This document shows positions 10,596 through 30,529 of a stretch of DNA of 54,289 bases, in pieces. The notes beneath the pieces are model-generated. The model worked only from the letters and a program-made list of their open reading frames with translations, was not told the DNA's origin and ran no database searches. The first letter of the stretch is position 1. The number at the start of each line of letters is the position of its first letter. The translations under genes were made by a program, and so were the position numbers. The stretch covers positions 1-54,289 of IMG/VR virus record IMGVR_UViG_3300038317_000129, one strand, 5' to 3'. This stretch comes from a virus. Its lineage: Duplodnaviria > Caudoviricetes.

Positions 10596-10727
10596 AAAAA
10601 AGCTCCTTTCAGATTCGGTAGAATCCGCAGGAGCCTTTTTCATCCGTAGAGACAAAAAACGGCTTGGATATAGTTCACCCATAGGGGTTTTGAACTAAAT
10701 CCAGGCCGTCAAACAGCTCTGCGGATT
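10596..10727 (-). promoter_or_regulatory. Structured 5' leader with RBS-sequestering hairpin and alternative pairing
   Basis: Hairpin 10596-10640 covers AAAGGAG; long hairpin about 10658-10709; 10719-10727 is complementary to 10622-10630. Confidence 0.55.
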
Positions 10728-10753
10728 TCTATGTTTAATTGTGAGTTGTGGTG

Positions 10754-10963
10754 TTAAGCCACTGTTTTCCTGCTTTTAACGCTAAAGTCGTTTGCGGTAA
10801 CTCTGGTAATTACCGTTACTATGCCTTGACGTTCAACAGTAAATGTTTCGCCGATTGCAAGGATCGTACTGGTTTTATGTCCTTTATAAAGACATTCAAT
10901 AAGCCCTGTTTCACGGCATGCCATACAGGCTAATCGTCCAAGACAATCATGGATCGGTATCAA
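10754..10963 (-). CDS. Small hypothetical protein
   Basis: AGGAGG RBS upstream; 69-aa ORF between ImmA and the sigma-like gene. Confidence 0.55.
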   Translation of the reverse strand: MIPIHDCLGRLACMACRETGLIECLYKGHKTSTILAIGETFTVERQGIVTVITRVTANDFSVKSRKTVA

Positions 10964-11019
10964 TCATGGACCACCTCCTTCTTAATACAGTACATAATCA
11001 TTATTCCCTGTTTAGCGTG

Positions 11020-11035
11020 TACGCTTATCTGCGTA
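11020..11035. promoter_or_regulatory. Palindromic operator TACGC-N6-GCGTA (early genes)
   Basis: TACGCTTATCTGCGTA; same motif at 12142, 18998 and 19075. Confidence 0.65.
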
Positions 11036-11081
11036 ATATCAGGCAAAAAAATAGGCTTCTGTTGCATTACTGCAGCAGAAG

Positions 11082-11747
11082 TCAAAGTAAGCTGCACTCT
11101 TTCAAACGTATTTCTACCGATTTTTTTGACACTTCAAAATAACCCGCCAAAGCACCAATGGCGCTTCTGTTGTCCTTGTCATACGCAACTCCAAGTCTCT
11201 CAGCTGCTTCCGTAAACGTGCTCTTTGGCATTAAAATCCTGGGAGCAATACCAATTGCTTGTGCTTCCATGATATTTTCGTCGTCCGTCGCTTCTGGCAA
11301 CTGCGAAACGTTGCATTTACAATATTTCGCATATCTGGGCAATACAAGATTCTGATACTTGTAGTAGTAGCGATGCTTATACCAGTGGACGCATTCATGT
11401 GCAAGTGTGTTGTTTCGGCAACCTGTGTTTGTTCTCTTTACTGCCTCAGGATCAACCAGAACAGTTCTTGCCTTAAACTCTCGTGTGTCATATAAACCTT
11501 CGTCTGGATCATACACCTCTACAAGGCCATCGGTAAAAATCGTCATGCCGTATATATCGAGCTCTTCAGTAAGACATATGTATTGTACATCAAGCCCCAG
11601 CCCATCCTTAGCAATTTGTTCAATTGGGACAGGCATGGGGTCTTTCAATGCTTTCGGATAATATTGCTCCAAGAACTCATTTGCTACTTCGTCATATTTG
11701 GATGGTGGTATAAACGGCACGAGTTTACGACTGTTGTAATCCATCAT
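11082..11747 (-). CDS. ImmA/IrrE-family Zn metallopeptidase
   Basis: NTLAHECVHW (HExxH), E.QA...ILMP, C-terminal FEVSKKSVEIRL. Confidence 0.9.
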   Translation of the reverse strand: MMDYNSRKLVPFIPPSKYDEVANEFLEQYYPKALKDPMPVPIEQIAKDGLGLDVQYICLTEELDIYGMTIFTDGLVEVYDPDEGLYDTREFKARTVLVDPEAVKRTNTGCRNNTLAHECVHWYKHRYYYKYQNLVLPRYAKYCKCNVSQLPEATDDENIMEAQAIGIAPRILMPKSTFTEAAERLGVAYDKDNRSAIGALAGYFEVSKKSVEIRLKECSLL

Positions 11748-12121
11748 TGTTCTCCATTCCGTTTGTCAATAATCTGGTTCACCTCCTGCCAGAAGTCGTC
11801 TCCGAGCCCCTGACTTTTTGCCCTTCGTAGTGCGACCCGCGCGTTTGGCAATGATTCGTCCATGATATAATCTGGCAGGTCTGGAGACACTTGTTTCCTT
11901 TCTCTCCCAGCAAGGTCGAGCATTTCTTCCCGTTCCTGTTCGTTCAGGTTCAAGGCTTGTGCAAGTTTTTCAAGGCCATCAATATCAGGCGGGTTCCTTC
12001 TTCCTTTAATGATATCAGACAGATATGTTACGGAAACACCGAGCTTTTCAGCTATCGGTCTTAGTTTGATATCCTTCTCTAATCGTTTACGTGCAATAAA
12101 TGCACCAAATTCGCCAGCCAT
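11744..12121 (-). CDS. XRE-family HTH repressor (ImmR-like)
   Basis: LRPIAEKLGVSVTYLSDIIKGRRNPP; ATGA overlap with ImmA. Confidence 0.9.
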   Translation of the reverse strand: MAGEFGAFIARKRLEKDIKLRPIAEKLGVSVTYLSDIIKGRRNPPDIDGLEKLAQALNLNEQEREEMLDLAGRERKQVSPDLPDYIMDESLPNARVALRRAKSQGLGDDFWQEVNQIIDKRNGEQ

Positions 12122-12140
12122 TTTAGTCCTCCTTTCGCTA

Positions 12141-12191
12141 TTACGCTTTTACGCGTAACTGTATTGTATCCTATCCTGCCGTAAATGTCAA
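12141..12191 (-). promoter_or_regulatory. SigA promoter of xre-immA with operator at the start site
   Basis: TTGACA (12186-12191), 17 bp, TACAAT (12163-12168); TTACGCTTTTACGCGTAA at 12141-12158. Confidence 0.75.
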
Positions 12192-12260
12192 GCCCTGTAC
12201 AGCCCTCTTCTTTGTTAATTATTCTAACTTGATTTTGAACATTATTTTTGATTTAGAGCA

Positions 12261-12289
12261 TTGATAAATCAATCGTGATGTGCTATAAT
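12261..12289 (+). promoter_or_regulatory. SigA promoter of the C5 methyltransferase
   Basis: TTGATA, 17 bp, TATAAT with extended TG. Confidence 0.7.
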
Positions 12290-12319
12290 TAGAACAAGTT
12301 AAAGGAAGGAGAACTGACC

Positions 12320-13774
12320 ATGCCGCAGCACGGAGGAAGACGAGAAGGGTCAGGTAGGACACCCCTGCCTGAGAATGAAAAGAAAATACCAAAAACTATA
12401 TACATTACGCCCACCCTTCAGACTGACATTGACAAATTTGCAGCTGGAAACAGCTTTTCTGAAAAGTGCATCGATCTCATCAGCGCGCAGATTTCCCGCA
12501 GAAAACGCACGCAGGATAAAACCGTCAAATTCATCGACCTTTTCGCGGGACTTGGCGGGATACGCCTTGGTTTTGAAAACGCATTTAAGGAAAAAGGCTT
12601 CGAACCCGTTTGCGTTTTTAGCAGCGAAATCAAGGATTATGCTGTAAAGGCATATAAAAACTATTTTGACGATGAAGAAGTCGCGGGTGACATTACTAAA
12701 ATCCCTGCAACCGACATTGAGGATTTTGATTTCCTGCTTGGTGGATTTCCGTGCCAGCCATTCTCGGCAGCTGGGTTAGGTCTCGGATTTGAGGATACTC
12801 GCGGCACGCTCTTTTTTGAAATTGAACGGATACTTAGGGAAAAGCAGCCTTATGGGTTTCTGTTAGAAAATGTTGAGGGACTTATAAACCATGACGATGG
12901 ACGAACCCTTTCCATTATTATCGACCACTTGAAAAAGCTGAACTATTATGTTTCTTACAGACTGATTGACAGCCAGTATTTTGGCTTGGCTCAGTCTCGA
13001 AAACGCGTATATATCGTAGGAACGAAGGATGCCCATATATCCTTAGATAACTTTGAAGAGCATACAGCGGTATTCGGCGACATCATGGAGCATGGTCTTC
13101 CTACCGTGGATTCGGAATTCACTCGAAAGCTGTTTTCGCATTTCACCCCAGCACAAGTGGTAGGGAAAGCGATTAAAGATAAACGCGGAGGAGCCGACAA
13201 TATCCACAGCTGGGAAATTGGTTTAAAAGGAGACACTACAGAAGAGCAGTCCAATTTCCTGAACCTCCTTCTTCTTGAACGCAGGAAGAAAAAGTGGGCA
13301 GCGGAAATCGGGATAGACTGGATGGATGGCATGCCGCTGACTGAGCAGCAAATATCGACCTTCTTCCAGCATGATGATTTAAAAGGCTTTCTCGACAACC
13401 TTGTAAATATGGGATATCTTACACTGGAATATCCGCGTAAGAGATATAAAGGCAGACGTGTACCGGATGAAACCAAGCCGAAGGGATACAACATTGTAGC
13501 AGGCAAATTGTCTTTTGAATTCACAAAAATACTTGACCCTGCTGAACTTGCGCCAACGCTCGTAGCGATGGATGTTTCCCATCTCGGCGTTGTTGACGGG
13601 AACGGTCTCCGTAGACTCTCAATCAGGGAAGGACAGCGGTTATGCGGGTTTCCGGAAGATTATGACTTATCCTTCTTAAAAGAAAGTGAGGCGTTTGACC
13701 TCCTTGGGAACACAGTCTGCATACCGGTTATCCAGGCAATTTCAGAACGGCTGGCGGACATGTACAGTAATTAG
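12320..13774 (+). CDS. DNA (cytosine-5) methyltransferase, M.NlaIV/M.NgoBV-like, with N-terminal DNA-binding extension
   Basis: DLFAGLGG, GFPCQ, ENV, QSRKR, LGNTV; TRD KDKRGG..NIHSW.I.LKG and EIGIDWMDGMPLT recalled from M.NlaIV (GGNNCC). Confidence 0.9.
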   Translation: MPQHGGRREGSGRTPLPENEKKIPKTIYITPTLQTDIDKFAAGNSFSEKCIDLISAQISRRKRTQDKTVKFIDLFAGLGGIRLGFENAFKEKGFEPVCVFSSEIKDYAVKAYKNYFDDEEVAGDITKIPATDIEDFDFLLGGFPCQPFSAAGLGLGFEDTRGTLFFEIERILREKQPYGFLLENVEGLINHDDGRTLSIIIDHLKKLNYYVSYRLIDSQYFGLAQSRKRVYIVGTKDAHISLDNFEEHTAVFGDIMEHGLPTVDSEFTRKLFSHFTPAQVVGKAIKDKRGGADNIHSWEIGLKGDTTEEQSNFLNLLLLERRKKKWAAEIGIDWMDGMPLTEQQISTFFQHDDLKGFLDNLVNMGYLTLEYPRKRYKGRRVPDETKPKGYNIVAGKLSFEFTKILDPAELAPTLVAMDVSHLGVVDGNGLRRLSIREGQRLCGFPEDYDLSFLKESEAFDLLGNTVCIPVIQAISERLADMYSN

Positions 13775-13781
13775 CTATCAC

Positions 13782-13811
13782 AGAGGCGGTTGCTCCTTTT
13801 GCACCGCCTCT
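13782..13811. terminator. Hairpin between convergent MTase and DUF3883 genes
   Basis: AGAGGCGGTTGC-TCCTTTT-GCACCGCCTCT followed by a T-rich tract. Confidence 0.6.
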
Positions 13812-14745
13812 ATATTTTTTGTACCCTGTATGAAGATGCGTTGACCATCCATTCTTCACCATCAAACACAACGGTGTAAGGGTCACGTATGAAAACCGGC
13901 TGATAGCCCGGTTCCTTCATCCTCGCATAATCGACAAGGCACAATACGTATTTGTTTGCCTTAATTTTGGCCACATCTGTTTCGTTCTCTGACCAGAAAA
14001 AGTGTGGGGAGCCAATGTAGCATTTCACTTCGATAAAACGGTCATAATGCGTTGATCCATTTGCTTCGTATGAAACAATATCATACCCGGCAGCTGTATC
14101 AAAATCAGAGATCCTCTTGATTTTCCCAGCCATCCCAGGAAGCCGGCTTTTTTCAAGACTAAGGACAAACTCCTCTGCCTCGAGTCCGCGACGGCTCTGT
14201 TCCTCCTGCTGCTTTAACAATTGTTCAAGCGTTATTTTCTTTTTACGACTACTTAATTGTTCCGCCCAGTCCGTTTCATAATCACCGGAAACGCTTATTT
14301 CTCCGTTTTCCTCTTTGTCCAGAGCACCGACCATTGTTAGGAAGTTCCGAATAGCCGCATAAGCTAATGGGAAAGCAGAGCGTTTGATGGTGAGATGACC
14401 TTTTTCGGCGTCAAATCCTGTAGCACCTGCATCAAATATCCCATCTTCAACGAGACGGTCTATACTTAGAGCCGCAAGATCTCCAATCGCCTCATCGCCG
14501 CTTTTGGCGGCAATCCCATTAAACTTGGCAGAAGGGAACACCATATCTGGCGTTGTTGACACTAATCCCAGGTATTCAAAAAAAGCCACAGCGCCCGGAC
14601 AGTTGACCACAATATTATTTTCCAAAGCGCATCTATTCCTGATCTCGTTCTTGCTAATTTTTTCTTTATCTGCCATTATCGAAATGAGGAACAGAACGCC
14701 ATTAACATTGCCTATGGAATTACATCTTTTTAGTTCTGTTAACAT
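13810..14745 (-). CDS. DUF3883 (NOV C-terminal) PD-(D/E)xK nuclease domain protein
   Basis: G..AEEFV...E, GYDI, RFIEVK, FFWSENE. Confidence 0.8.
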   Translation of the reverse strand: MLTELKRCNSIGNVNGVLFLISIMADKEKISKNEIRNRCALENNIVVNCPGAVAFFEYLGLVSTTPDMVFPSAKFNGIAAKSGDEAIGDLAALSIDRLVEDGIFDAGATGFDAEKGHLTIKRSAFPLAYAAIRNFLTMVGALDKEENGEISVSGDYETDWAEQLSSRKKKITLEQLLKQQEEQSRRGLEAEEFVLSLEKSRLPGMAGKIKRISDFDTAAGYDIVSYEANGSTHYDRFIEVKCYIGSPHFFWSENETDVAKIKANKYVLCLVDYARMKEPGYQPVFIRDPYTVVFDGEEWMVNASSYRVQKI

Positions 14746-16681
14746 ATTCCGCAATCAAGGCCTTGATATCGTCATCACCAGTCTCCAGCCCTGCATTTTC
14801 AAACAGCGGGATAGGCATGCTTTCGATAATTTCCCTGAGCCTTGTCTCCTTTTCGATTAGCCTGTTGTGGATAACTTCATCAATGGAATCCTCTGACAGG
14901 AGGTAATAATAATTTGTTTCTGTTCCCGGCTTTAGTCCGTATCTGTGGATGCGGTCCTTTGACTGAATGAAGTGCGCTGCGTTAAAGCTCCTTTCCATGT
15001 AGATGGCGTTATGGCAAGCCTTGTGCAGGGATATAGATTCCGAGACGGCAAATGGGTTCGCAATAATCACCTTGAAAGGGGAATCCGGCTTATGGAAATC
15101 AGCTATGATTTTTTCCCTTGTCTCAACTTCATCCTCGTCCTCATCACCTGTAGACACAGGCGTCGCCCCATATAATGTTTTACAGAGAATACCGTTTGAC
15201 AGGAGGTATTTTTCAAAGTCGAGTATATTCTGGATATAAATAGCCCAGACAACGACCTTCCCTCCCTCAGAAATAATCTCTTCAATTAGTTCACGTGCTT
15301 TTATAAACTTTGCCGGCGTTTCCAACGTGGCATATTGGAGGACATCAGCCACAAGGGAGGTATCTTCAGATACAGCCCCCGAATCAAAGCCCTCAAGGGA
15401 TGCGAAATTCTTTAGCGGAACACGGAGAAGGCTTGGATTCGTGGCCGCCTGCATCATGCGAAGCAGACGAGCCTTTACCAGATCCTGCCTGAACAAGTTG
15501 TCCTTGGTCGAAACGATATCGTCCATGTACTTTTTTTCTATCACATCGTATATTCTACGTTGCGCCTCGCCCATCGGAACAATAATGGGCTCATGCTCCG
15601 TAGCCGGAGGTATTCCCAAGTCGCTTTTTTTTACGCGGATAAAGAACGGCTCGATTGCCTGCAGTAATGTATTCACCCTTGGGTCATTATCCGACTTGCT
15701 CATATCCTTCAGTTGGTACACTTCAAACGGTATTATCTTCTTTGTCGGCCAGATGAACTTATAAAGGTTATAAAGATCCTCGTACCCATTCGGTGCCGGC
15801 GTACCAGTCAGGACGACCCTGGCAGAACAATATGAGGCAATGTCCAAAACACCGGCAGCGGTTACTCCACCGCTGGTATTCTTGATTTTATGGGCCTCGT
15901 CCAATACGACCATTACTTTATTATTCCGCAGAAAATAAACCAGCTCGTCTTTTAACGATGGGACAGAAGCATAGGACAGTAATGTGATCTTCGCTGGGAC
16001 TGGAGAATAAAGATACTGCTTTTTTTCTTCAATGGAAACCTTTCCGTTCAGCCTTTTTGTGGATGGTTCCTCCCCAAAGCATTCCTTGTATTCGAGTTCC
16101 CACGGACCAAATGCGCTGAGCGGCGAGATGATTAGCAACCGGTCAACGTATTTTTTGTCGTTCTCCGGAAGGTGTGACAGATAAGCGAATGCACCATAAA
16201 CAACGCTTGTCTTTCCAGCTCCGGGCACGGAAAAGTTACACGCGTTTTGTGAAAAAGCAAGATGATAAGCAGAAAGAAGCTGCAGTTCGTATAGACTCCT
16301 GTTAGGCAGATTTGTACTGACCGAATCAACGAATTGCTTAAAATCATCCTTGTTGCACTTGTTATCTCTGATCAGTCGTGCCTGTTCCGCAAATTCCCTG
16401 AATTTTTCCTCTTCGAGGGCATAGCTATTGACCGCCTCTGAAACCTCACCGGAATATAAAAGGTCTGCGTTTATATATCTGCACAACTTCTTGACTCGGT
16501 CGATACTTTTGTTGATCCCGTCACCAGCCTCAATAACAAGACCACCGTTTGTCTCTGTATACTTAAGGGTATCTTTCAAGTAGCGTAATGCACGTCTGTT
16601 ATTGAATATTGCCCCTATATCGCCGGTGATAATCAGAGAACTGTCGTCATTTCCATTTGATCCAATACACAGTTTCTTCAT
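14720..16681 (-). CDS. SNF2-family ATPase/helicase
   Basis: SVPGAGKT, LDEAH, LTGTP, QSKDRIHRYG. Confidence 0.9.
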   Translation of the reverse strand: MKKLCIGSNGNDDSSLIITGDIGAIFNNRRALRYLKDTLKYTETNGGLVIEAGDGINKSIDRVKKLCRYINADLLYSGEVSEAVNSYALEEEKFREFAEQARLIRDNKCNKDDFKQFVDSVSTNLPNRSLYELQLLSAYHLAFSQNACNFSVPGAGKTSVVYGAFAYLSHLPENDKKYVDRLLIISPLSAFGPWELEYKECFGEEPSTKRLNGKVSIEEKKQYLYSPVPAKITLLSYASVPSLKDELVYFLRNNKVMVVLDEAHKIKNTSGGVTAAGVLDIASYCSARVVLTGTPAPNGYEDLYNLYKFIWPTKKIIPFEVYQLKDMSKSDNDPRVNTLLQAIEPFFIRVKKSDLGIPPATEHEPIIVPMGEAQRRIYDVIEKKYMDDIVSTKDNLFRQDLVKARLLRMMQAATNPSLLRVPLKNFASLEGFDSGAVSEDTSLVADVLQYATLETPAKFIKARELIEEIISEGGKVVVWAIYIQNILDFEKYLLSNGILCKTLYGATPVSTGDEDEDEVETREKIIADFHKPDSPFKVIIANPFAVSESISLHKACHNAIYMERSFNAAHFIQSKDRIHRYGLKPGTETNYYYLLSEDSIDEVIHNRLIEKETRLREIIESMPIPLFENAGLETGDDDIKALIAEYVNRTKKM

Positions 16682-16695
16682 TCACTCAACATCCT

Positions 16696-17982
16696 TTACA
16701 GTCCGAGTATATCCTTGAACTTCGATACATATTCATCTAACGAAGATACACACGCACGCACCTTACTGTCGCTCATAAAACTCGCCTGGTCAACGTCTAC
16801 GACCGAAAGTGCCTGACACGCTTTCATAAGCTGCTGCAGAGGCTTGGCGGCGTTCGCGTGGTTATTTAGGATATCTATGCTCTGGACATAATTATCATCA
16901 AAAGAGTCCTCTACCTTCCGCTTCCACTGCTGGTCACGGGCCTTTAAAGCCCGACTCAGATCCGGTGGGTTCTTCGCCATTATATCTTCGACAGACTCTT
17001 CCTGGACGGAATCCGTAGCTGCGAAATGCCTATCACGGAACTGCTCCCATACTTCTTTCTTTGCAAAGAAGCTGGCGGCAGGGTTCTTGGCGGAAGGTGC
17101 TGAAATAATGTCTCGGAACTTTGTCTGTTCGAAATTGGCACGTATGTAATCAAACGCAATCAATTTCAAGTCAGAAACATCAGCTTCTGGATCGTAATCC
17201 CACATTGAAGCCACTCCGGCTTTATATTTTTTCAGCGCCGAATCGAGCTTTAGGAAGGAGTCCTCACTCTTCCCCAACTGAGTATACATACCCGAATATC
17301 CATATTCGTCCAGATACTCATCCATCAATTGGAGCGCAGACAGCATCGTGCGTACTTCTCCGGCTTTGCAATCCATCATCCCCGCAATATCATCGTCAGT
17401 AAAACCGGCGTCTTTCAGGTCCTTGCATTTCAGGTACTTCTCAATCGGGTTATAATCAACCTTGGCGTCCTCACCCATCTGGTAAGTGGTTTCCAGCGCA
17501 AGAATCTCTTTCTTGTCTGCACCTTCCGGGAGGATAATGGCAATAAAATATTGACAGTGGGTCTTCTCGTTGAATGGGATACTGTCGTCCGCCATTATAT
17601 TATTCAGCAAACTTGCACGGCGGTTACCATCAATAATCATACCATCGGCGGTCACGATACCGTGCCTTTGCTGATGCTCTTTCAGAAGACGTTCTTTGGT
17701 TTTCTTGTTCGCATCCGGCTTGGAGTCCCACAGGAATTTCTCTATAATTTTCTTATCCCCGGGGTCTTCGGGATCCAATTGGTGGTTCTGCCGTTCATAC
17801 GACTTGACAACGCTCCCGATCCTTCCGTTATATGGATTATAGACAAGATACTCCAGAGGAATTTCGTATGCGTCCAAGGTAATGATGCTGCCGTGATAGG
17901 TAATAGGAATACCGGTCCGGCACGCTTTCTCTGGGTGGTCGGTAAATTCTTTCAGTTTTGCTTTTCTCTCAGTAGCGTTCAT
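16696..17982 (-). CDS. ParB/Srx N-terminal domain protein
   Basis: YNPYNGRI and GIVTADGMIIDGNRR motifs; helical C-terminal region. Confidence 0.75.
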   Translation of the reverse strand: MNATERKAKLKEFTDHPEKACRTGIPITYHGSIITLDAYEIPLEYLVYNPYNGRIGSVVKSYERQNHQLDPEDPGDKKIIEKFLWDSKPDANKKTKERLLKEHQQRHGIVTADGMIIDGNRRASLLNNIMADDSIPFNEKTHCQYFIAIILPEGADKKEILALETTYQMGEDAKVDYNPIEKYLKCKDLKDAGFTDDDIAGMMDCKAGEVRTMLSALQLMDEYLDEYGYSGMYTQLGKSEDSFLKLDSALKKYKAGVASMWDYDPEADVSDLKLIAFDYIRANFEQTKFRDIISAPSAKNPAASFFAKKEVWEQFRDRHFAATDSVQEESVEDIMAKNPPDLSRALKARDQQWKRKVEDSFDDNYVQSIDILNNHANAAKPLQQLMKACQALSVVDVDQASFMSDSKVRACVSSLDEYVSKFKDILGL

Positions 17983-17999
17983 CTTTAATTCCTCCGCAG

Positions 18000-18929
18000 T
18001 TATAATTCGTCGATGTGGGCATCTATAATATCTTCCAATAGCCCCATATTCTTAAAATTCAAAACATAGTCCGAACACCTATGGATCTCTTTCAAATCTG
18101 CCTGCCTGCCAATCCAGCCAGCCCCATCCAGAAAGTTCACATAGATGATATTATTACCAGAAGCACGTTCTGATTTTATGACTTCCTCTGTTTTCCTTGC
18201 CGCTGTCTTTTTGCTACCCTGACTACTCGAAGTAGTTACGCTGTACGAAACGTCAAAGATAAGTTTCGGCTTATTTGGAGATTCTATGACGAAGCTGACG
18301 GCCCGGTCGAGTTTAGGCACGCGCACATTTTTCTGATACTCCAAGCCATATTTAGCACAGACACGTTTCAGTTCGTTTTCTACATCAGCAAGAACCGCAT
18401 CACCTATCATATTGCTGTATGTGCCTTCCAAGCTACGCTTCACAAGCTGGCGAACACTGTCTTCATCCTTTATTTTTGCGAGTGTATTGGCATCCATAGA
18501 CATATTTTCCAAATAGAATGCCGGGATGCAGGCCTGCATATTAGGATCGTTCTTCCCATTCCATATAAGGTTCAAGATACTTTCCATCATTACCGGGCTT
18601 TCCATCATTGCTGAACGGATCTTACTCAGCCCCCATTCTGTGCCGAAAACAAATCCACGGTCTTTCCGTATCATAGAAACCATGCGTTTGAACCTCTCCT
18701 CAGAAATCTCCATAACGGATGTAAGGCGATCCAACGCGTCCTTGTGATCGATAATATATTGTTTCAATGTTTCCTTGCTGGTAATCGTTTTCAATCCGAC
18801 GAGAATGTCCGCAGTCTGCGTATCGATCATATCCTTAATTGACTTCTCGCAGCCCTTATTGATATAAAACATCGTTGTCGAATTGAACAGTTCCTCGTAG
18901 GACAGCTTTTGTACATTGTTAACAGCCAT
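18000..18929 (-). CDS. DpnII/BanI-fold restriction endonuclease-like protein, probably with a degenerate active site
   Basis: SYSVTTSS and NFLDGAGWIGR motifs; RAVSFVI where D is expected. Confidence 0.65.
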   Translation of the reverse strand: MAVNNVQKLSYEELFNSTTMFYINKGCEKSIKDMIDTQTADILVGLKTITSKETLKQYIIDHKDALDRLTSVMEISEERFKRMVSMIRKDRGFVFGTEWGLSKIRSAMMESPVMMESILNLIWNGKNDPNMQACIPAFYLENMSMDANTLAKIKDEDSVRQLVKRSLEGTYSNMIGDAVLADVENELKRVCAKYGLEYQKNVRVPKLDRAVSFVIESPNKPKLIFDVSYSVTTSSSQGSKKTAARKTEEVIKSERASGNNIIYVNFLDGAGWIGRQADLKEIHRCSDYVLNFKNMGLLEDIIDAHIDEL

Positions 18930-18959
18930 TTCTGAACCCTCCATCGTTGTGATGTGTTA

Positions 18960-19013
18960 ATTATATCACGGCGAAGAGTGAAAGGCAATATACAAATTAC
19001 ACTTTTTTGCGTA
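18960..19013 (-). promoter_or_regulatory. SigA promoter of the four-gene operon with adjacent operator
   Basis: TTGCCT (18983-18988), 17 bp, TGnTATAAT (18960-18965); TACAC-TTTTTT-GCGTA at 18998-19013. Confidence 0.7.
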
Positions 19014-19074
19014 TTATCTAGCGTCCCATATTATCTGTTTTTTGTGCTTGTATATATCCCATCTTTTTTACGTA

Positions 19075-19090
19075 TACGCTTATAAGCGTA
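19075..19090. promoter_or_regulatory. Palindromic operator TACGC-N6-GCGTA (defence operon)
   Basis: TACGCTTATAAGCGTA, a perfect palindrome. Confidence 0.65.
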
Positions 19091-19128
19091 ACTATATCTC
19101 AAAAAAAATAAAACTTGAAACGTTTACA

Positions 19129-19620
19129 CTATGTTTCCTCATCCGTCGAATAAACATCCTCGGCAGATACAATCGTTTTTTCAAATATCGTTTCTTCTAT
19201 AACTTTTACACAACCATTTAAATCCTTTTTTATGTCTTTTCCCCAGAACCGTATTACAGTCCAATCAAGAGATGCTAATTCCTGATCAACCTTTTTGTCG
19301 CGTTCCATATTTTCTTCAATGTGACGGATCCAATAATCCGGATTCTTCCCGTGCGAAAGCCGTTCTTTCAGTTTATCCCAATCTTTTCCATGAAAGAACT
19401 CACTGTCACAAAAAATTGCTATCTTCTGTTTTGTTATCGCTATGTCTGGAGAACCCGGAAGTTTACTATAGTTCTTTCGATAGCGGTAACCATCGTGCCA
19501 TAAGCGCTTCCGAAGCAAGATTTCAATGCTGGTATCTTTGCTACGAATCTTCTGCATGTTCTTCCTGGTTTTTTCAGAAACCTTTCCGAACTGCCGCTCG
19601 ATTCTGCGCATAGACGACAC
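19129..19620 (-). CDS. vsr: Very short patch repair endonuclease
   Basis: NMQKIRSKDT..E, GSPDI, FCDSEFFHG, N..YW, WTVIRFW. Confidence 0.9.
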   Translation of the reverse strand: MSSMRRIERQFGKVSEKTRKNMQKIRSKDTSIEILLRKRLWHDGYRYRKNYSKLPGSPDIAITKQKIAIFCDSEFFHGKDWDKLKERLSHGKNPDYWIRHIEENMERDKKVDQELASLDWTVIRFWGKDIKKDLNGCVKVIEETIFEKTIVSAEDVYSTDEET

Positions 19621-19726
19621 CTCCTCGCCGAGCTTTCTTCATGTATTCATCCACACGGCTGTTATTAATTATTTACTGTTCTCCGCTATTATTTTAGTGG
19701 TTTATAATTCGCTTTTCTACATCATT

Positions 19727-19921
19727 TTATTCTATTGCACTCTTGCCGCTGTTGACCCACTCATCGAGCTCCGAGCACTTGAACTTCCAGAGCTTACCGA
19801 TCTGGTGCGCTGGCAAGTCCGGCTTTTTCTTTATCCATTTTCGCAGAGTGCCGGGTTTTATATTCAAGTATGTTGCAGCATCTTCAAGACTAATGTAACC
19901 ATCATCCAGTTTGTCTTTCAT
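19727..19921 (-). CDS. Excisionase-family (HTH_17/MerR-like) DNA-binding protein
   Basis: SLEDAATYL.I..GTLRKW...LPAHQIGKLWKFK.SELDEW. Confidence 0.85.
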   Translation of the reverse strand: MKDKLDDGYISLEDAATYLNIKPGTLRKWIKKKPDLPAHQIGKLWKFKCSELDEWVNSGKSAIE

Positions 19922-19994
19922 GCCCGCCTCCCAATCTCAGAAATCACACTAATTCTATTGTAACCCATTATAACACATCTGCGTCTGTTTTTTA

Positions 19995-20030
19995 GTCATT
20001 TCATGGCATTTGTTGGTATCAAGCGGCATT
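19995..20030. repeat. Four 10-bp-period hexamer repeats upstream of the HTH_17 gene
   Basis: GTCATT, GGCATT, GGTATC and GGCATT at 19995, 20005, 20015 and 20025. Confidence 0.5.
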
Positions 20031-20462
20031 TCATTCGACCCGTTCGGTTCCGAACCGATCCCTGATATAGCAGTCAAAGCAGCAGTACTTTCTGTTCCGA
20101 TTTCCATAGGCTGTGAACTTTTTCCCGCAGCATGCGCAGATAAACTCGTAGTTTGCTTTCCGGTTGATCTGGTTCCGGTTTTTGCTCCACCATTTCCTGC
20201 GGCACTTATCACAGCAGAATATTTTCTGTTTCCGCTTCGGATTCTGCTCGATCGGCGCTCCGCAGTTCCTGCAATGCGATAGTTTCACATCATTGTATGT
20301 GCCGGCCTGTGCTTCCTTCTTTGCTATTCCGGCAAAACCGTGCCGCCTGCAGTATGATTTTACAGTTTCGCGGTTAAGGCCGAGTTCCTTCGATATTTCT
20401 CCGTATCCGACGCCTTTTTTCCGCATTCTCTCTATTTTATCTTTCTGCGCTTCATTCATCAT
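20031..20462 (-). CDS. HTH plus zinc-finger protein typical of recombinase modules
   Basis: GYGEISKELGLNRETVKSYCRR; CRNCG, FCCDKC, CACCG, YCCFDC. Confidence 0.75.
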   Translation of the reverse strand: MMNEAQKDKIERMRKKGVGYGEISKELGLNRETVKSYCRRHGFAGIAKKEAQAGTYNDVKLSHCRNCGAPIEQNPKRKQKIFCCDKCRRKWWSKNRNQINRKANYEFICACCGKKFTAYGNRNRKYCCFDCYIRDRFGTERVE

Positions 20463-21882
20463 AAAATACCTCATTCCTTTTTCTGTCATATGTCGGGATT
20501 GGCTTTTCGCGTGTACTCCCATCGATTAAGCAGAACCGCAGCATCTTGTCCGGCAGTACGGTTATCTGCTTGATGGTAAGCGCCAGATCCTCTTCATCCG
20601 AAAGCATCCGGGATATATCCCGCTTCTTCAGTTTCTTAATCCACTCCCTTACGCCCGGAATCCTGTCTGCCGGAATGATGCCGACGAGAATATCCGTCAG
20701 CACATCTGCCAGCTTCCGCTCAAGCGCAATGTCCCTCGCCGTATCGTGAATCACATAATGGAGCGCCTTGTCCGCCACGTTATGCGTTTTGCACCGCGCT
20801 TCCTTTCTCCACCTGTTCCGGCACTGCCATATGATTTTCCGGTACTCATCGTTTGAATGCCACGGACGCGGTGTAAATGTTCCGCCACATTTCCCGCAGA
20901 TGAGCTTGCTGGAAAGCACAGTCACGCCGGAATACCGCTGATTGTTTTCAAAGCTGCGCTCCTTCATACGCTCCTGCACATAATCAAAAAGCCACGGGGA
21001 GATAATCGCCTCGTGGTCTTCTCTAACATAATACTGCGGCAGTTCGCCTTCGTTTTTCTTTACCTTCTTGGTCAGGTAATTGACTGTAAAGCTTTTTTGA
21101 AGTCTGCTGTCGCCCTTGTACTTTTCATTTGATAATATGCTGCGGACGGTGGAACTCCACCATTTCCCGTTTTCAGCGTTCGGCGTGTCAGCGCCTTCGT
21201 TCTGCATGATTCTGGCAATCTGCGGGGATGCGTAGCCCTGCAGGAAGAGGAAGAATATCCTCCGGACCTCATCAGCCTGTTCCTCGTTGACCACCATCGT
21301 GTATTTTTCATCGCCCTTGTCGTAGCCAAGGAAACGGCCGTAAGCAAGGCTCATCTTTCCATCGGCGAACCTCTTTCTCTGTCCCCATTTGACGTTCTCC
21401 GAAATCGACCGTGATTCCTCCTGGGCGAGGGAGGACATGATGGTCAGTAAAAATTCACCCTTGGAATCCAGAGTGAAAATGTTCTCTTTCTCAAAGTAAA
21501 CGCCGATTCCTTTTTCCTTCAGCTTGCGGATGATGGTGACCGTATCCACGGTGTTCCGTGCAAACCTCGATATGGACTTTGTCAGTACCAGATCGATGTC
21601 ACCGTTCAGGCAGGCGTCCACCATTCTGTTGAAGCCCTCGCGCCTGTTCGTGCTCAGTCCGGAAATCCCGTCGTCTACAAACACCTCCACGAACTCCCAT
21701 CCGGCATGCTGCAGTATTTTCTTTCTGTAATAATCAGTCTGCGCGGCGAGGCTCGATTCCTGATCTTCATGGTCGGTCGATACTCTTACGTAGGCCGCCA
21801 CGCGCTGTACTGCCTTTTCCGCTTCTTTCATCGTCGCCGGGCGCGGGACAGCATTGATACGTGTAACTACTCTATCTTTCAA
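20452..21882 (-). CDS. Large serine recombinase (integrase)
   Basis: YVRVST catalytic motif, KSISRFARN, LAQEESRSISEN, recombinase domain, Zn ribbon CGKCG. Confidence 0.93.
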   Translation of the reverse strand: MKDRVVTRINAVPRPATMKEAEKAVQRVAAYVRVSTDHEDQESSLAAQTDYYRKKILQHAGWEFVEVFVDDGISGLSTNRREGFNRMVDACLNGDIDLVLTKSISRFARNTVDTVTIIRKLKEKGIGVYFEKENIFTLDSKGEFLLTIMSSLAQEESRSISENVKWGQRKRFADGKMSLAYGRFLGYDKGDEKYTMVVNEEQADEVRRIFFLFLQGYASPQIARIMQNEGADTPNAENGKWWSSTVRSILSNEKYKGDSRLQKSFTVNYLTKKVKKNEGELPQYYVREDHEAIISPWLFDYVQERMKERSFENNQRYSGVTVLSSKLICGKCGGTFTPRPWHSNDEYRKIIWQCRNRWRKEARCKTHNVADKALHYVIHDTARDIALERKLADVLTDILVGIIPADRIPGVREWIKKLKKRDISRMLSDEEDLALTIKQITVLPDKMLRFCLIDGSTREKPIPTYDRKRNEVFYDE

Positions 21883-22422: not shown

Positions 22423-22833
22423 TCAGTCGGCTTGTATCATTTCGGTCACGGCTTCATCGATATAGATCATCTTGATTTTGCCAAGGTAGGTCTCCTGCAG
22501 GAGCTTCAGCACTTCCAAATTGTCGCCTTCAATATAAAGGTTTTCGGTTGTGTCGAAGTTGACGCTTTCCTCCCGGCAGGGGCGGAGCGTCTTATTGATC
22601 GGCGCGTTGGCAAGCAGGACGGACTTTTTCTTGTCCGGCCATGTGAACTGATAGCGCTCCTCGCGCCCCTCCACCACAAAGTCGGAAAGCTCCTGCTTGA
22701 GCATATCAAAATCCACCACCCGCGTGAGCTTGCCGTCCACCAGCGATTCGGTCACGCAGTTCGGGAAAAGCCGCGCGATTTTTTCAACGTTTTCGTCCAC
22801 TTTATTGATGCTGTGCATTTTCAGCTTGTCCAT
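22423..22833 (-). pseudogene. mod: Type III R-M methyltransferase (Mod), truncated at the DPPY motif
   Basis: ERYQFTWPDK, NLYIEGDNLEVLKLLQ, KIKMIYID then EAVTEMIQAD-stop instead of PPYNTG. Confidence 0.9.
22450..22465. other. Putative attachment junction (attL/attR) of element A
   Basis: Abrupt loss of mod homology after the Asp codon (22456-22458); recombinase about 570 bp away. Confidence 0.65.
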
Positions 22834-22847
22834 GGATCTGTTCCTCC

Positions 22848-30512: not shown

Positions 30513-30529
30513 GAAAAACACCTCCAGAA

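What the first reader, a model, noticed from the sequence alone, without database searches (positions are those of the whole stretch)
12320..19620. Candidate undescribed ATP-dependent 5mC restriction-like system: C5 MTase + Vsr + REase-fold + ParB + SNF2 + DUF3883
Seen: a tight four-gene operon (gaps of 17 and 14 nt, then a 26-nt overlap) in visibly more AT-rich DNA than the phage modules. It encodes a DpnII/BanI-fold protein, a ParB/Srx-domain protein (IDGNRR), an SNF2 ATPase and a DUF3883 PD-(D/E)xK nuclease. It converges on a C5 MTase and has vsr upstream. Established: M.NlaIV/M.NgoBV-type MTases normally pair with a single Type II REase. Helicase-assisted 5mC systems (CglI, NgoAVII) use a PLD nuclease and SF2 subunits, and DISARM II and Hma have different components. 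I do not recall this set as a named system. Inference: unmethylated sites are read by the REase-fold subunit, the ParB-like protein acts as an NTP-dependent clamp or loader, SNF2 translocates and DUF3883 cuts.
Basis: partly seen in the sequence, partly recalled or inferred. Interest (0 to 1): 0.88.

Follow-up and report, generated by a model that had tools for sequence, protein, structure and literature searches.

The report
ParB–SNF2–nuclease cytosine-methylation restriction cassette
A temperate phage carries a conserved, unnamed gene cassette that pairs a cytosine DNA methylase with a ParB-like clamp protein, an SNF2 motor and one or two nucleases, which looks like a widespread but so far undescribed kind of restriction-type defence system.

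Summary
Window 11082-19620 carries intact genes for a C5 methylase, a DUF3883/NOV_C nuclease, an SNF2 ATPase, a ParB-fold protein, a DpnII/BanI-like protein and Vsr, with the stated gaps and overlap, in AT-rich DNA.

The genes co-occur widely. In 80 metagenome loci, SNF2 follows the ParB-like gene in 71 of 72 testable cases. DUF3883 follows SNF2 in 61 of 62.

The core is methylase + ParB-like + SNF2 + DUF3883. The DpnII-like gene lies just upstream of ParB in 40 of 73 loci. In 30 of 73 a longer methylase sits there instead. The ParB-like+SNF2 pair also sits beside MutH/Sau3AI-like and Type III restriction genes.

A fold model supports ParB-SNF2 binding: score 0.74, best control 0.14.

A palindrome, TACGC-N6-GCGTA, recurs at the cassette's promoters. 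It ties an HTH/M78 regulator pair to the cassette.

No PADLOC 2.0.0 model hits the ParB-like protein, and seven literature searches found no name for the system.

My reading is one NTP-dependent, methylation-based restriction system, confidence 0.6. The mechanism is inferred and nothing here was tested biochemically. Novelty: a new variant of a known kind. Interest 0.78.

The parts
11020..11035 (.). Palindromic box TACGC-N6-GCGTA (exact), about 50 nt downstream of the M78 gene
   Evidence: The position is conserved in 20 of 23 testable clade-1 loci (my tally).
11082..11747 (-). M78/IrrE-ImmA-type metallopeptidase gene (221 aa)
   Evidence: Pfam Peptidase_M78 E 6.4e-8. PADLOC capP E 9.9e-10. 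Kept next to the cassette in all 10 genome loci that reach that far.
11744..12121 (-). Xre-type HTH regulator gene (125 aa); overlaps the M78 gene by 4 nt
   Evidence: Pfam HTH_3 E 6.7e-11. PADLOC HTH_VI, capH and Control_protein hits.
12142..12157 (.). Palindromic box TACGC-N6-GCGTA (exact), 21 nt upstream of the HTH start codon and downstream of the HTH promoter-like site
   Evidence: Conserved in 22 of 23 testable clade-1 loci (tally).
12163..12191 (-). Promoter-like site for the HTH-M78 genes (TTGACA-17-TACAAT, 11 of 12 matches)
   Evidence: One of the three best hits in the 10 kb scanned.
12261..12289 (+). Promoter-like site for the MTase gene (TTGATA-17-TATAAT with TG, 11 of 12 matches)
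12320..13774 (+). C5 cytosine DNA methyltransferase (484 aa)
   Evidence: Pfam PF00145 251 bits and TIGR00675 327.6 bits. The motifs FAGLGG, PCQ, ENV, QSRKR and GNTV are read directly; their names are from my recall.
13810..14745 (-). DUF3883/NOV_C PD-(D/E)xK nuclease (311 aa), with an N-terminal region of about 170 aa of unknown fold
   Evidence: Pfam NOV_C 48.1 bits. E191, D222 and E239-V-K241 are invariant in 14 sequences down to 30% identity.
14720..16681 (-). SNF2-family ATPase (653 aa), with a lineage-specific N-terminal region of about 150 aa
   Evidence: Pfam SNF2-rel_dom and Helicase_C. GAGKT, DEAH and TGTP are invariant in 17 sequences. Residues 29-38, 62-65 and 318-338 form the predicted ParB interface.
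16696..17982 (-). ParB/Srx-fold protein (428 aa): N-terminal NTP-binding-type domain with an invariant GNRR, an HTH domain and a helical C-terminal domain
   Evidence: Residues 222-226, 256-274 and 320-324 form the predicted SNF2 interface.
18000..18929 (-). DpnII/BanI-like restriction-endonuclease-fold protein (309 aa; an alternative start at 18944 gives 314 aa)
   Evidence: Pfam RE_BanI and DpnII. The AF2 model (pLDDT 76) weakly matches BstEII, BsoBI and EcoT38I. E173, D182, D231 and D273 are invariant across both clades.
18960..18988 (-). Promoter-like site for the four-gene restriction operon (TTGCCT-17-TATAAT with TG, 10 of 12 matches)
18998..19013 (.). Box variant TACAC-N6-GCGTA (1 mismatch), abutting the -35 of the operon promoter
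19075..19090 (.). Palindromic box TACGC-N6-GCGTA (exact), about 130 nt upstream of the DpnII-like gene
   Evidence: A box lies 57-163 nt upstream (main site 124-163 nt) in 20 of 24 testable clade-1 loci (tally).
19129..19620 (-). Vsr very-short-patch T:G mismatch endonuclease (163 aa from a GTG start)
   Evidence: Pfam Vsr 84 bits and TIGR00632 119.9 bits. Present in 7 of 17 genome loci and 34 of 80 metagenome loci.

Best explanation
The cassette (window 11020-19620) is a single, mobile, NTP-dependent restriction-modification-type defence system carried as cargo by a temperate phage.

Shown by comparative genomics:
- The conserved core is a C5 cytosine methyltransferase, a ParB/Srx-fold protein, an SNF2 ATPase and a DUF3883 PD-(D/E)xK nuclease.
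- The DpnII/BanI-like protein is an accessory subunit found in about half of the family.
- Vsr and an HTH/M78 regulator pair are frequent add-ons.

Inferred mechanism:
- The methylase marks host DNA with 5mC. Vsr repairs the T:G mismatches that 5mC deamination causes.
- Unmethylated sites are recognised by the methylase/REase-fold module. This is the DpnII-like protein in this window. In the other architecture it may be the roughly 200-aa C-terminal extension of a longer methylase.
- The ParB-like protein binds DNA through its HTH domain. It acts as a nucleotide-gated switch or clamp.
- Its helical C-terminal domain recruits the N-terminal domain of the SNF2 motor.
- SNF2 translocates on the foreign DNA and DUF3883 cuts it, possibly together with the DpnII-like nuclease.
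- The Xre-type HTH protein binds TACGC-N6-GCGTA boxes at its own promoter and upstream of the restriction operon. It would then time or gate restriction in the way C-proteins do. The M78 peptidase would be a signal-responsive antagonist, as in ImmR/ImmA or CapH/CapP.
For: 1. Co-occurrence.
- In 17 genome loci the order DpnII-like, ParB-like, SNF2, DUF3883, convergent MTase, HTH, M78 is kept wherever the contig reaches. All five restriction/modification genes are present in 11 loci. SNF2 and DUF3883 follow ParB in 14 of 14 loci that extend past it.
- Record titles name hosts from Lachnospiraceae, Oscillospiraceae, Streptococcus, Bacteroidaceae and others.
- A second clade (ParB 56-63% identical, DpnII-like 33-42%, DUF3883 35-37%) keeps all five genes in a different order: MTase, DpnII-like, ParB, SNF2, DUF3883, all on one strand. 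This is 4 of the 5 loci L032-L035 and L037; L037 ends inside ParB.
- In 80 metagenome loci (the best 80 of 468 confirmed), SNF2 directly follows ParB in 71 of 72 testable cases. DUF3883 follows SNF2 in 61 of 62. A C5 MTase is present in 67 of 80.

2. The MTase is tied to the trio and not only to the DpnII-like gene. In 30 of 73 loci a C5 MTase abuts ParB with no DpnII-like gene.

3. The DpnII-like subfamily was not found apart from the trio. All 17 of 17 viral loci found with its profile are contigs already found with ParB.

4. Active-site motifs are conserved in SNF2, DUF3883 and the MTase.

5. The ParB fold with an invariant GNRR is supported.

6. The co-fold of SNF2 with ParB residues 1-345 scored ipSAE 0.74, 0.66 and 0.75. 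The best of 3 controls scored 0.14. That mark was reached by 58 of 80 solved complexes and 2 of 110 mismatched pairs. The runs agree in at least 90% of contacts and the partner pLDDT is at least 77. My own alignments were used, so these counts hold only roughly. The interface includes ParB positions near the nearly invariant W261 and D268.

7. Regulation.
- The three best promoter-like hits in 10 kb fall in the three expected intergenic regions.
- TACGC-N6-GCGTA with up to 1 mismatch occurs 6 times in the window against 1.08 expected; 0 of 100 shuffles reach 6. All 3 exact copies lie in the cassette.
- Box positions are conserved in clade-1 loci.

8. Defence context.
- The DNA is AT-rich.
- It lies beside a serine recombinase, a Lamassu system and an HKD+Snf2 gene.
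- A distant relative is Tn7-like cargo.
Against: - There is no functional evidence of any kind: no methylation motif, no restriction phenotype and no nucleotide binding.
- The ParB-like+SNF2 pair also accompanies complete Type III Mod/Res systems, whose Res subunit has its own motor. It also accompanies sigma-like proteins with no annotated methylase or nuclease nearby. The pair may therefore have a more general or different role than 'motor for the nuclease'.
- The ParB HTH region is well conserved across relatives whose methylases differ greatly (consensus). This argues against ParB as the sequence reader and leaves site recognition in the no-REase architecture unexplained.
- The DpnII-like protein lacks a canonical (D/E)xK lysine that I could identify. 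Its model is only moderately confident (pLDDT 76; Foldseek E 2.6e-3 at best).
- Many loci come from related phages, so the counts are not independent events.
- The HTH/M78 pair could belong to the phage backbone and not to the cassette. It is absent beside some clade-2 cassettes.
Confidence: 0.6

Rival explanations
1. There are two independent systems side by side. One is an ordinary Type II R-M system (C5 MTase + DpnII/BanI-like REase + Vsr). The other is a separate ParB-like/SNF2/DUF3883 defence system. They travel together only because defence genes cluster.
For: - The DpnII-like protein passes Pfam cut-offs for two Type II REase families. NCBI names its homologues 'DpnII family type II restriction endonuclease'.
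- The trio exists without it in 30 of 73 loci.
- The nuclease slot is modular: DpnII-like, MutH/Sau3AI-like or none.
Against: - In the loci without the DpnII-like gene, a C5 MTase still directly abuts ParB (30 of 73). The methylase therefore goes with the trio.
- The DpnII-like subfamily was never found without the trio (17 of 17 viral loci; 16 of 16 genome loci that hold it).
- All genes persist through a rearrangement and down to 33-37% identity.
- Spacing is operonic, with 17-nt and 14-nt gaps and a 26-nt overlap.
Confidence: 0.2
2. ParB-like+SNF2 is not the restriction motor. It is a general accessory module for mobile R-M systems. It might control when restriction starts after entry into a new host. 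It might help the methylase reach all sites. It might strip protective proteins from incoming DNA.
For: - The pair is found with three unrelated restriction chemistries, including Type III systems that already have a motor.
- It is also found with sigma-like DNA-binding proteins on enterococcal plasmids and Mu-like phages.
- Most carriers seen are mobile: phages, Tn7-like cargo and plasmids.
Against: - In the largest group the only nuclease present is DUF3883. It overlaps the end of SNF2 (61 of 62).
- SNF2-DUF3883 fusions act as the helicase-nuclease component in Hma. This rests on a table row in PMC11232893 and on the HEPN paper's remark about SNF2 fused to DUF3883 in R-M operons (PMC3710099).
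Confidence: 0.15
3. The cassette is not a defence system. It serves the phage itself, for example in partition or silencing by a ParB/KorB-like clamp, in replication, or in epigenetic marking of phage DNA.
For: - The best structural matches are partition and silencing ParB proteins.
- The window also has phage replication genes nearby, including a second SNF2 helicase.
Against: - No ParA-like gene was seen in any neighbourhood examined.
- The cassette also occurs as Tn7-like cargo and in chromosomal contigs with different flanks.
- Conserved nuclease active sites, a methylase and Vsr fit restriction.
- The DNA is AT-rich cargo beside other defence systems.
Confidence: 0.05

Closest known systems
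Hma (HmaA SNF2 helicase-DUF3883 nuclease, HmaB DUF1156 methylase, HmaC DUF499 ATPase)
   Same: A methylase works with an SNF2-type motor and a DUF3883 nuclease plus one further NTP-binding component. Here SNF2 and DUF3883 are adjacent, overlapping genes instead of one fusion.
   Different: - The methylase is C5-cytosine, not DUF1156.
- The extra component is a ParB-fold protein, not a DUF499 ATPase.
- The cassette's SNF2 gave no HmaA hit among its 25 PADLOC families.
- Hma's composition is taken from one table row in PMC11232893.
MANTIS / Gao_RL (MtsA AAA+ ATPase, MtsB, MtsC N6 methylase, MtsD helicase-nuclease)
   Same: The logic is similar: a methylase-centred recognition module with an NTPase partner triggers a separate helicase-nuclease against unmethylated DNA. 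This is from the abstract and passages of bioRxiv 10.64898/2026.09.23.753747.
   Different: - The protein families differ throughout: AAA+ versus ParB fold, N6-adenine versus C5-cytosine, and a SauUSI-like PLD nuclease versus PD-(D/E)xK.
- That paper does not contain the word ParB.
DISARM class 2 (DrmA, DrmB, DrmC, DrmE, DrmMII)
   Same: A C5 methylase (PADLOC DrmMII hit, E 2.1e-52, though MTase_II models score higher) is combined with helicase components. SNF2 gives weak partial DrmD hits.
   Different: No DrmA/YprA helicase, DUF1998 or PLD protein is present. DISARM has no ParB-fold protein and no DUF3883.
Type II R-M with helicase subunits (CglI, NgoAVII) and LlaJI/SpyI-type C5 systems
   Same: C5 methylation is coupled to NTP-dependent, multi-subunit restriction. 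A phage with a similar replication gene set (family-A polymerase, D5-type primase, SNF2 helicase, serine recombinases), Phi1207.3, carries the LlaJI-like SpyI cassette among its cargo genes (gene table of PMC4260502).
   Different: Those systems use PLD/B3 or McrBC-like subunits (CglI and NgoAVII are from my recall). None has a ParB-fold or DUF3883 component.
ParB-CTPase-fold proteins (ParB, KorB, Noc) and ParB-domain restriction enzymes (GmrSD, DndB)
   Same: The fold is an N-terminal ParB/Srx domain followed by an HTH, with a Box-II-like GNRR. ParB-fold domains are known in restriction contexts (passages of PMC5512222, and PMC12839542).
   Different: - No ParA partner is present.
- There is no DUF262, HNH or DUF1524 hit.
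- An asparagine stands where, by my recall, ParB has the catalytic glutamate of GERR.
- The protein is obligatorily paired with SNF2. The 2025 survey of the fold does not mention SNF2 (0 occurrences in PMC12704722).
C-protein controlled R-M systems; ImmR/ImmA and CapH/CapP regulator pairs
   Same: An Xre-type HTH gene has a palindromic box at its own promoter and upstream of the restriction operon. It is paired with an M78 peptidase.
   Different: By my recall, classical C-proteins have no peptidase partner. CapH/CapP are described with CBASS and other systems. Binding and cleavage are untested here.

Membership tests
Type II restriction-modification (C5 MTase + stand-alone REase) | C5 cytosine methyltransferase with the conserved catalytic motifs | tested here: met
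   PF00145 251 bits and TIGR00675 327.6 bits. The PCQ, ENV and other motifs are visible.
Type II restriction-modification (C5 MTase + stand-alone REase) | REase belonging to a known Type II family | tested here: met
   RE_BanI 37.6 bits (cut-off 28) and DpnII 31.6 bits (cut-off 23), covering the C-terminal half only. Weak structural matches to BstEII and BsoBI.
Type II restriction-modification (C5 MTase + stand-alone REase) | MTase and REase suffice as a two-gene unit (the REase occurs with its MTase alone) | tested here: not met
   This REase subfamily lies next to ParB-like in 17 of 17 viral loci and in 16 of 16 genome loci that hold it. SNF2 and DUF3883 follow wherever the contig continues. 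The searches were limited by their patterns.
Type II restriction-modification (C5 MTase + stand-alone REase) | Mg-dependent, NTP-independent site-specific cleavage | not testable with these tools
   This needs biochemistry.
Hma | HmaA: SNF2 helicase fused to a DUF3883 nuclease | tested here: inconclusive
   Both domains are present but as two overlapping genes. The cassette's SNF2 gave no PADLOC HmaA hit.
Hma | HmaB DUF1156 methylase and HmaC DUF499 ATPase | tested here: not met
   Neither domain was found among the cassette proteins.
DISARM | DrmA helicase + DrmB (DUF1998) + DrmC (PLD) core | tested here: not met
   There are only partial DrmD/DrmA helicase-lobe hits on SNF2 (E 1e-9 to 5e-6). 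No DUF1998 or PLD protein is present.
MANTIS / Gao_RL | AAA+ MtsA, MtsB, N6 MTase MtsC and helicase-PLD MtsD | tested here: not met
   No such PADLOC or Pfam hits. The composition is taken from the preprint's abstract.
GmrSD-type Type IV enzymes | DUF262 ParB-like NTPase domain with a DUF1524/HNH nuclease domain | tested here: not met
   The ParB-like protein has 0 Pfam families, and no HNH protein is in the cassette.
ParB/Srx (ParB-CTPase fold) superfamily | ParB N-terminal fold with an arginine-rich Box II, followed by an HTH | tested here: met
   AF2 pLDDT 93.8. Foldseek finds KorB, Spo0J, ParB and Noc with probability 1.00. G119, N120, R121 and R122 are invariant in 52 sequences. 20 of 52 members hit PF18763 weakly.
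ParB/Srx (ParB-CTPase fold) superfamily | Nucleotide binding, and which nucleotide | not testable with these tools
   PMC12704722 reports that neither sequence nor AlphaFold3 predicts the specificity. I saw this in the heading of its section 9 and in passages.
ParABS partition systems | Adjacent ParA ATPase and parS sites | tested here: not met
   No ParA-like protein was seen in the window's cassette or in the neighbours scanned.
C-protein / ImmR-ImmA / CapH-CapP type regulation | Xre-type HTH with a palindromic operator at its own and the regulated promoter; M78 peptidase partner | tested here: inconclusive
   The domains are present. The palindrome is enriched and positionally conserved. 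Binding and cleavage were not tested. The pair could instead belong to the phage backbone.

The most novel reading that the evidence does not exclude
A ParB-CTPase-fold protein acts as a nucleotide-gated DNA clamp that licenses restriction. It would couple site recognition by interchangeable methylase/nuclease modules (C5 MTase with DpnII-like, MutH/Sau3AI-like or no REase; Type III Mod/Res) to a dedicated SNF2 motor. ParB-like+SNF2 would then be a previously unrecognised, portable 'clamp-and-motor' module of prokaryotic immunity. It would be the first role of the ParB switch in discriminating self from non-self DNA.
Probability: 0.3. Interest if true: 0.9.

Novelty: new variant of a known kind. 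Interest (0 to 1): 0.78.

Why it matters
Methylation-based defence beyond the classical R-M types (BREX, DISARM, Hma, MANTIS) is an active field, and how self is told from non-self is often unclear. This cassette adds a large, cross-phylum family:
- 1271 clusters at 50% identity match the ParB-like protein at E up to 0.001.
- 468 metagenome loci were confirmed before the cap.

Its constant feature is a ParB-fold protein paired with an SNF2 motor. ParB-fold proteins are known as CTP-gated sliding clamps in chromosome segregation and gene silencing. Finding one built into restriction systems of several types would give a directly testable link between nucleotide-gated clamps and immunity.

It would also explain a common 'hypothetical protein' in gut and food-fermentation bacteria and in their phages.

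Because the system is phage-borne, it bears on superinfection exclusion. It also bears on how mobile R-M systems establish themselves safely in a new host.

Tried and rejected
- Near-identity DNA searches of 12320-19620 in the phage and plasmid collections found nothing.
- PF27581 and PF26568, listed for some homologues, are not in the local Pfam copy.
- The genome search could not draw relatives because the window is a virus record.
- Profile searches of PDB sequences gave only chance hits for the ParB-like and DpnII-like alignments.
- The ESM Atlas gave only 'hypothetical protein' clusters for ParB-like. It gave nothing above 0.80 for the methylase extension.
- hhalign of the roughly 200-aa C-terminal extension of the long methylases found no relation to the DpnII-like, ParB-like, DUF3883 or SNF2 alignments (probability 0.5 or less). 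I therefore dropped the idea that the extension is a fused remnant of the DpnII-like protein.
- I considered the 16-bp palindrome as a parS-like loading site for the ParB-like protein. I prefer the Xre-type HTH as its binder. The geometry (5-bp half-sites spaced by 6) and the position about 20 nt before the HTH start fit an autoregulated repressor. This is not excluded.
- RNA evidence:
  - Contigs at 99% identity or more from three RNA-labelled libraries of two studies cover pieces of every gene at low depth. A fourth run is labelled RNA but is probably DNA.
  - Such libraries can hold DNA, and one contig spans the divergent promoter region. I draw no conclusion on transcription.
- Supplementary files of the Aravind-lab and defence-discovery papers were closed. 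A listing of this gene neighbourhood there cannot be excluded.

Full report
**1. What is in the window.**

The ORF map gives these genes:
- An M78 peptidase gene (11082-11747) and an Xre-type HTH gene (11744-12121), both on the minus strand.
- A C5 methyltransferase (12320-13774) on the plus strand.
- Converging on the methyltransferase, a minus-strand operon:
  - a DpnII/BanI-like protein (18000-18929, or 18944);
  - a 428-aa protein with no family hit (16696-17982);
  - an SNF2 ATPase (14720-16681);
  - a DUF3883/NOV_C protein (13810-14745).
- Vsr (19129-19620) and a large serine recombinase (20452-21882) lie further upstream on the minus strand.

The overlap depends on taking the ATG at 14745, which is the start found in the protein collection.

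Pfam, NCBIfam and PADLOC confirm every assignment except ParB.

GC is 0.39-0.47 between 11 and 20 kb and 0.50-0.58 in the flanks.

**2. The ParB claim.**

The 428-aa protein has no Pfam, NCBIfam or PADLOC hit. An alignment of 52 relatives (25-58% identical to it) has these invariant positions: G119-N120-R121-R122, N49, N52, R54, Q104 and others.

AlphaFold2 on this alignment gives pLDDT 93.8 and pTM 0.89.

Foldseek against the PDB returns, as its best matches:
- KorB of RK2;
- Thermus Spo0J;
- Myxococcus and Caulobacter ParB bound to cytidine nucleotides;
- Noc.

Probability is 1.00, E-values are 9e-4 to 9e-3, and TM normalised to the target is 0.34-0.59. The matches cover the N-terminal domain and the HTH.

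Twenty of the 52 members give weak hits to PF18763 (ddrB-like ParB) and five to HTH_ParB.

The protein is therefore a member of the ParB/Srx-fold superfamily, with a long helical C-terminal part that has no match. By my recall, N120 stands where canonical ParB has the glutamate of GERR needed for CTP hydrolysis. I did not test this.

**3. The other proteins.**

- **SNF2.** GAGKT, DEAH, TGTP and the motif VI arginines are invariant in 17 sequences down to 31% identity.
- **DUF3883.** E191, D222 and E239-x-K241 are invariant in 14 sequences down to 30% identity. This is a standard PD-(D/E)xK signature.
- **Methylase.** It shows the usual C5 motifs.
- **DpnII-like protein.**
  - It has 270 detectable relatives of similar length. 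NCBI names some of them 'DpnII family type II restriction endonuclease'.
  - Its model is moderate (pLDDT 76). It matches BstEII, BsoBI and EcoT38I only weakly (E 2.6e-3 to 1e-2).
  - Across two clades at 33-42% identity, E173, D182, D231, D273, D283 and D292 are invariant. D213 is not.
  - I cannot say whether it cleaves DNA.

**4. Co-occurrence.**

A pattern scan of one genome per species found 17 loci. tblastn with the window's proteins gave these results:
- The DpnII-like gene lies directly upstream of ParB in 16 of 17 loci.
- SNF2 and DUF3883 lie directly downstream in 14 of the 14 loci that continue past ParB.
- The convergent methylase is present in the 11 clade-1 loci that reach it.
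- HTH and M78 are present in the 10 loci that reach them.
- Vsr is present in 7 of 17.

Record titles name Lachnospiraceae, Oscillospiraceae, Streptococcus, Bacteroidaceae, Anaerostipes, Galactobacillus, a spirochaete and others.

The viral collection gave 29 loci:
- Fourteen have the window's order.
- Five form a second clade (ParB 56-63% identical). Four of them keep all five genes in the order MTase, DpnII-like, ParB, SNF2, DUF3883 on one strand. L037 ends inside ParB.

A profile of the DpnII-like protein found 17 viral loci. All 17 are contigs already found through ParB.

The metagenome scan confirmed 468 stretches before its cap and kept 80. I classified these with HMMs built from my own alignments:

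| Feature | Count |
|---|---|
| SNF2 directly follows ParB | 71 of 72 testable |
| DUF3883 directly follows SNF2 | 61 of 62 testable |
| Gene just upstream of ParB is DpnII-like | 40 of 73 |
| Gene just upstream of ParB is a C5 methylase | 30 of 73 |
| Gene just upstream of ParB is something else | 3 of 73 |
| A methylase somewhere in the locus | 67 of 80 |
| Vsr in the locus | 34 of 80 |

Of the three 'something else' loci, one is a truncated methylase (L104). One has its methylase downstream (L094).

Many loci come from related phages and the collections overlap. These are counts of loci, not of independent events.

**5. A second architecture.**

Where the methylase abuts ParB, it is 541-570 aa long. 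The C5 domain ends near residue 340-365, and about 200 further residues have no Pfam match. This extension shows no profile similarity to the DpnII-like protein (hhalign probability 0.1) and no Atlas lead.

The DpnII-like subunit is therefore dispensable for the family. The methylase goes with the ParB-SNF2-DUF3883 trio.

**6. The ParB-like+SNF2 pair in other company.**

- L036 and L038 have a C5 methylase with a MutH/Sau3AI-like nuclease next to ParB-like+SNF2, without DUF3883.
- L103 has MutH-like, methylase, ParB, SNF2 and DUF3883.
- Six viral loci of one lineage have Type III Mod, Res, ParB-like and SNF2 in a tight operon; L045 ends within ParB-like.
- More distant ParB-like proteins sit with a large protein carrying RNA-polymerase alpha-CTD and sigma region 4 domains, and with a helicase. 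This is seen on Enterococcus faecalis plasmids and, more distantly, in loci with Mu-type transposase genes, where no helicase was detected.

The constant unit is ParB-like+SNF2. In the restriction-linked versions there is always a methylase and at least one PD-(D/E)xK-type nuclease.

**7. Do ParB-like and SNF2 touch?**

I co-folded full SNF2 with ParB residues 1-345, each with its alignment.
- Scores were ipSAE 0.74, 0.66 and 0.75, against 0.14 for the best of three controls.
- That mark was reached by 58 of 80 solved complexes and 2 of 110 mismatched pairs in the tool's calibration.
- The runs agree in at least 90% of contacts, and the partner's pLDDT is at least 77.
- My own alignments were used, so the calibration holds only roughly.

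The interface joins SNF2 residues 29-38, 62-65 and 318-338 to ParB residues 222-226, 256-274 and 320-324. This is the start of ParB's family-specific helical domain, near the nearly invariant W261 and D268. The model supports binding; it does not show it.

**8. Regulation.**

The three best promoter-like matches in 10600-20600 fall in the three intergenic regions where promoters are expected:
- upstream of the methylase (12261-12289, plus strand);
- upstream of the HTH gene (12191-12163, minus strand);
- upstream of the restriction operon (18988-18960, minus strand).

Overall the scan found no more sites than in shuffles (16 against 18.7). Only the placement is suggestive.

A palindrome, TACGC-N6-GCGTA, occurs exactly at 11020, 12142 and 19075. 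A copy with one mismatch at 18998 abuts the operon's -35. With up to one mismatch the window has 6 copies against 1.08 expected. None of 100 shuffles reached 6.

In clade-1 loci the box recurs at the same three places (my tally, loci not independent):
- 57-163 nt upstream of the DpnII-like gene (main site 124-163 nt), in 20 of 24 testable loci;
- 14-52 nt (mostly 21-23 nt) before the HTH start, in 22 of 23;
- 49-71 nt after M78, in 20 of 23.

It is absent from clade 2 and from more distant loci, whose HTH proteins are only 39-42% identical. I take the box as the operator of the HTH protein. That ties the HTH/M78 pair to the restriction operon.

Identity also drops sharply just past M78. In L002, for example, M78 is 83% identical and the next gene 43%.

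The alternative is that HTH/M78 is the phage's own ImmR/ImmA-type switch. This is not excluded. The genes downstream are phage replication genes, and some clade-2 cassettes lack the pair nearby.

**9. Context.**

The window is a virus record (message).
- It has a primase/D5 helicase, a family-A polymerase and a replicative SNF2 helicase at 1.5-9.6 kb.
- By position, structural genes lie beyond 31 kb. I did not annotate them.
- Between 22 and 31 kb lies more defence cargo:
  - a truncated Type III methylase;
  - DUF4391 with an HKD+Snf2 protein (PADLOC C3a139, E 2.7e-122);
  - a complete Lamassu set (LmuA, LmuC, LmuB).

In L016 a distant version is cargo next to a TnsD-like gene.

The S. equi prophage Javan191 in GenBank carries the cassette annotated as hypothetical proteins, an SNF2 helicase and a cytosine methyltransferase.

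Phi1207.3 of S. pyogenes has a similar replication gene set. It carries the LlaJI-like SpyI cassette among its cargo genes, according to its gene table (PMC4260502).

**10. Is it named?**

- PADLOC-DB 2.0.0 (2023) has no model that hits the ParB-like protein of this window, of the long-methylase architecture or of the Type III-linked form.
- The other proteins hit only domain-level or generic models: PD-T4-1, TmtA and PDC-S36 for the DUF3883 domain; ZorD, DpdE and DrmD for the helicase lobes; REase_II, MTase_II and Vsr.
- Sources name the proteins 'hypothetical'.
- Seven full-text searches and reading of passages in ten papers found no description of this gene set.
  - The papers are PMC12839542, PMC3710099, PMC11232893, PMC5512222, PMC11529989, PMC10853773, PMC13069673, PMC12704722, the MANTIS preprint and PMC4260502.
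  - The 2025 survey of the ParB-CTPase fold does not contain the word SNF2.
'Unnamed' is therefore provisional.

**11. Mechanism.**

The shown and inferred steps are set out under Best explanation. The weakest link is site recognition.

The ParB HTH segment is strongly conserved across relatives whose methylases are only about 35% identical (consensus). ParB is therefore unlikely to read the methylase's target. The methylase itself, its extension or the REase-fold partner would have to.

The association with Type III systems also leaves open that ParB-like+SNF2 is an accessory or control module and not the motor of cleavage.

**12. Verdict.**

  - the core is MTase, ParB, SNF2 and DUF3883;
  - the DpnII-like subunit is optional;
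  - there is an HTH/M78 control layer with conserved boxes.
- I rate it a new variant of a known kind: methylation-based, motor-nuclease defence.
- There is a real chance (about 0.3) that the ParB-SNF2 module is a new principle.

Noticed in passing
window 27243-30521 (-): A complete Lamassu-type system. PADLOC hits: LmuA (29520-30521, E 4.5e-49; Pfam CTD6 of ABC-3C systems), LmuC (29078-29539, E 3.7e-48) and LmuB (27243-29081, E 6e-163). It lies in a second AT-rich stretch with GC 0.42-0.46.
   Followed up: partly
window 23107-26963 (-): A DUF4391 protein (208 aa) is followed by a 1077-aa protein that matches PADLOC C3a139 'HKD+Snf2' end to end (E 2.7e-122). This is probably a further helicase-nuclease defence gene pair.
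   Followed up: partly
window 22423-22875 (-): A 150-aa ORF matches only the first ~120 positions of Type III methyltransferase models (PDLC03634, E 2.3e-54). It looks like a truncated Mod gene with no Res gene beside it.
   Followed up: no
window 20452-21882 (-): A large serine recombinase (Resolvase, Recombinase and Zn_ribbon_recom domains) lies next to the cargo region. Contig L008 holds it at 99.8% identity together with Vsr and the start of the cassette.
   Followed up: no
L144 (E. faecalis plasmid NZ_CP098027.1) 4366-10041; L043 7410-12061; L046 4961-8429: A distant ParB-like protein sits beside a large 'sigma factor-like' protein with RNA-polymerase alpha-CTD and sigma region 4 domains. 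On the plasmid a DEAD/DEAH helicase 36% identical to the Type III-linked SNF2 follows. In L043 the ParB domain is fused to a Swt1-like HEPN domain. No methylase or nuclease is annotated beside the trio. 69 plasmid records match, 52 of them Enterococcus.
   Followed up: partly
L111 6374-7999 and 27 similar loci: The methylases that abut ParB directly carry a C-terminal extension of about 200 aa. It has no Pfam hit, no profile similarity to any cassette protein and no Atlas lead. Its role is unexplained; it may dock the trio or help read the site.
   Followed up: yes
L016 2438-12168: In a spirochaete contig the system lies next to a TnsD/TniQ gene, so it is probably Tn7-like cargo. It comprises Vsr, a C5 MTase, ParB-like, SNF2 and DUF3883, with no DpnII-like gene. 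The methylase and SNF2 reading frames are broken, and the methylase end runs into the ParB frame (739-aa ORF). This is either decay or assembly error.
   Followed up: partly
L032 4972-5901; L041 6888-7949: Two signs of decay in relatives. The DpnII-like gene of L032 has an in-frame stop. The SNF2 gene of the Type III-linked locus L041 is interrupted by an rve/HTH_38 transposase gene.
   Followed up: no
window 17987 (between the DpnII-like and ParB-like genes): Contigs of two public runs carry 4 extra bases in the 17-nt spacer and are otherwise at least 99% identical. This is a natural spacer-length variant between the two genes.
   Followed up: no
window 12239-12281: An imperfect 17-nt inverted repeat (76% complementary, 9 nt apart) overlaps the -35 of the methylase promoter-like site. 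It is a different sequence from the TACGC box and has no assigned binder.
   Followed up: no
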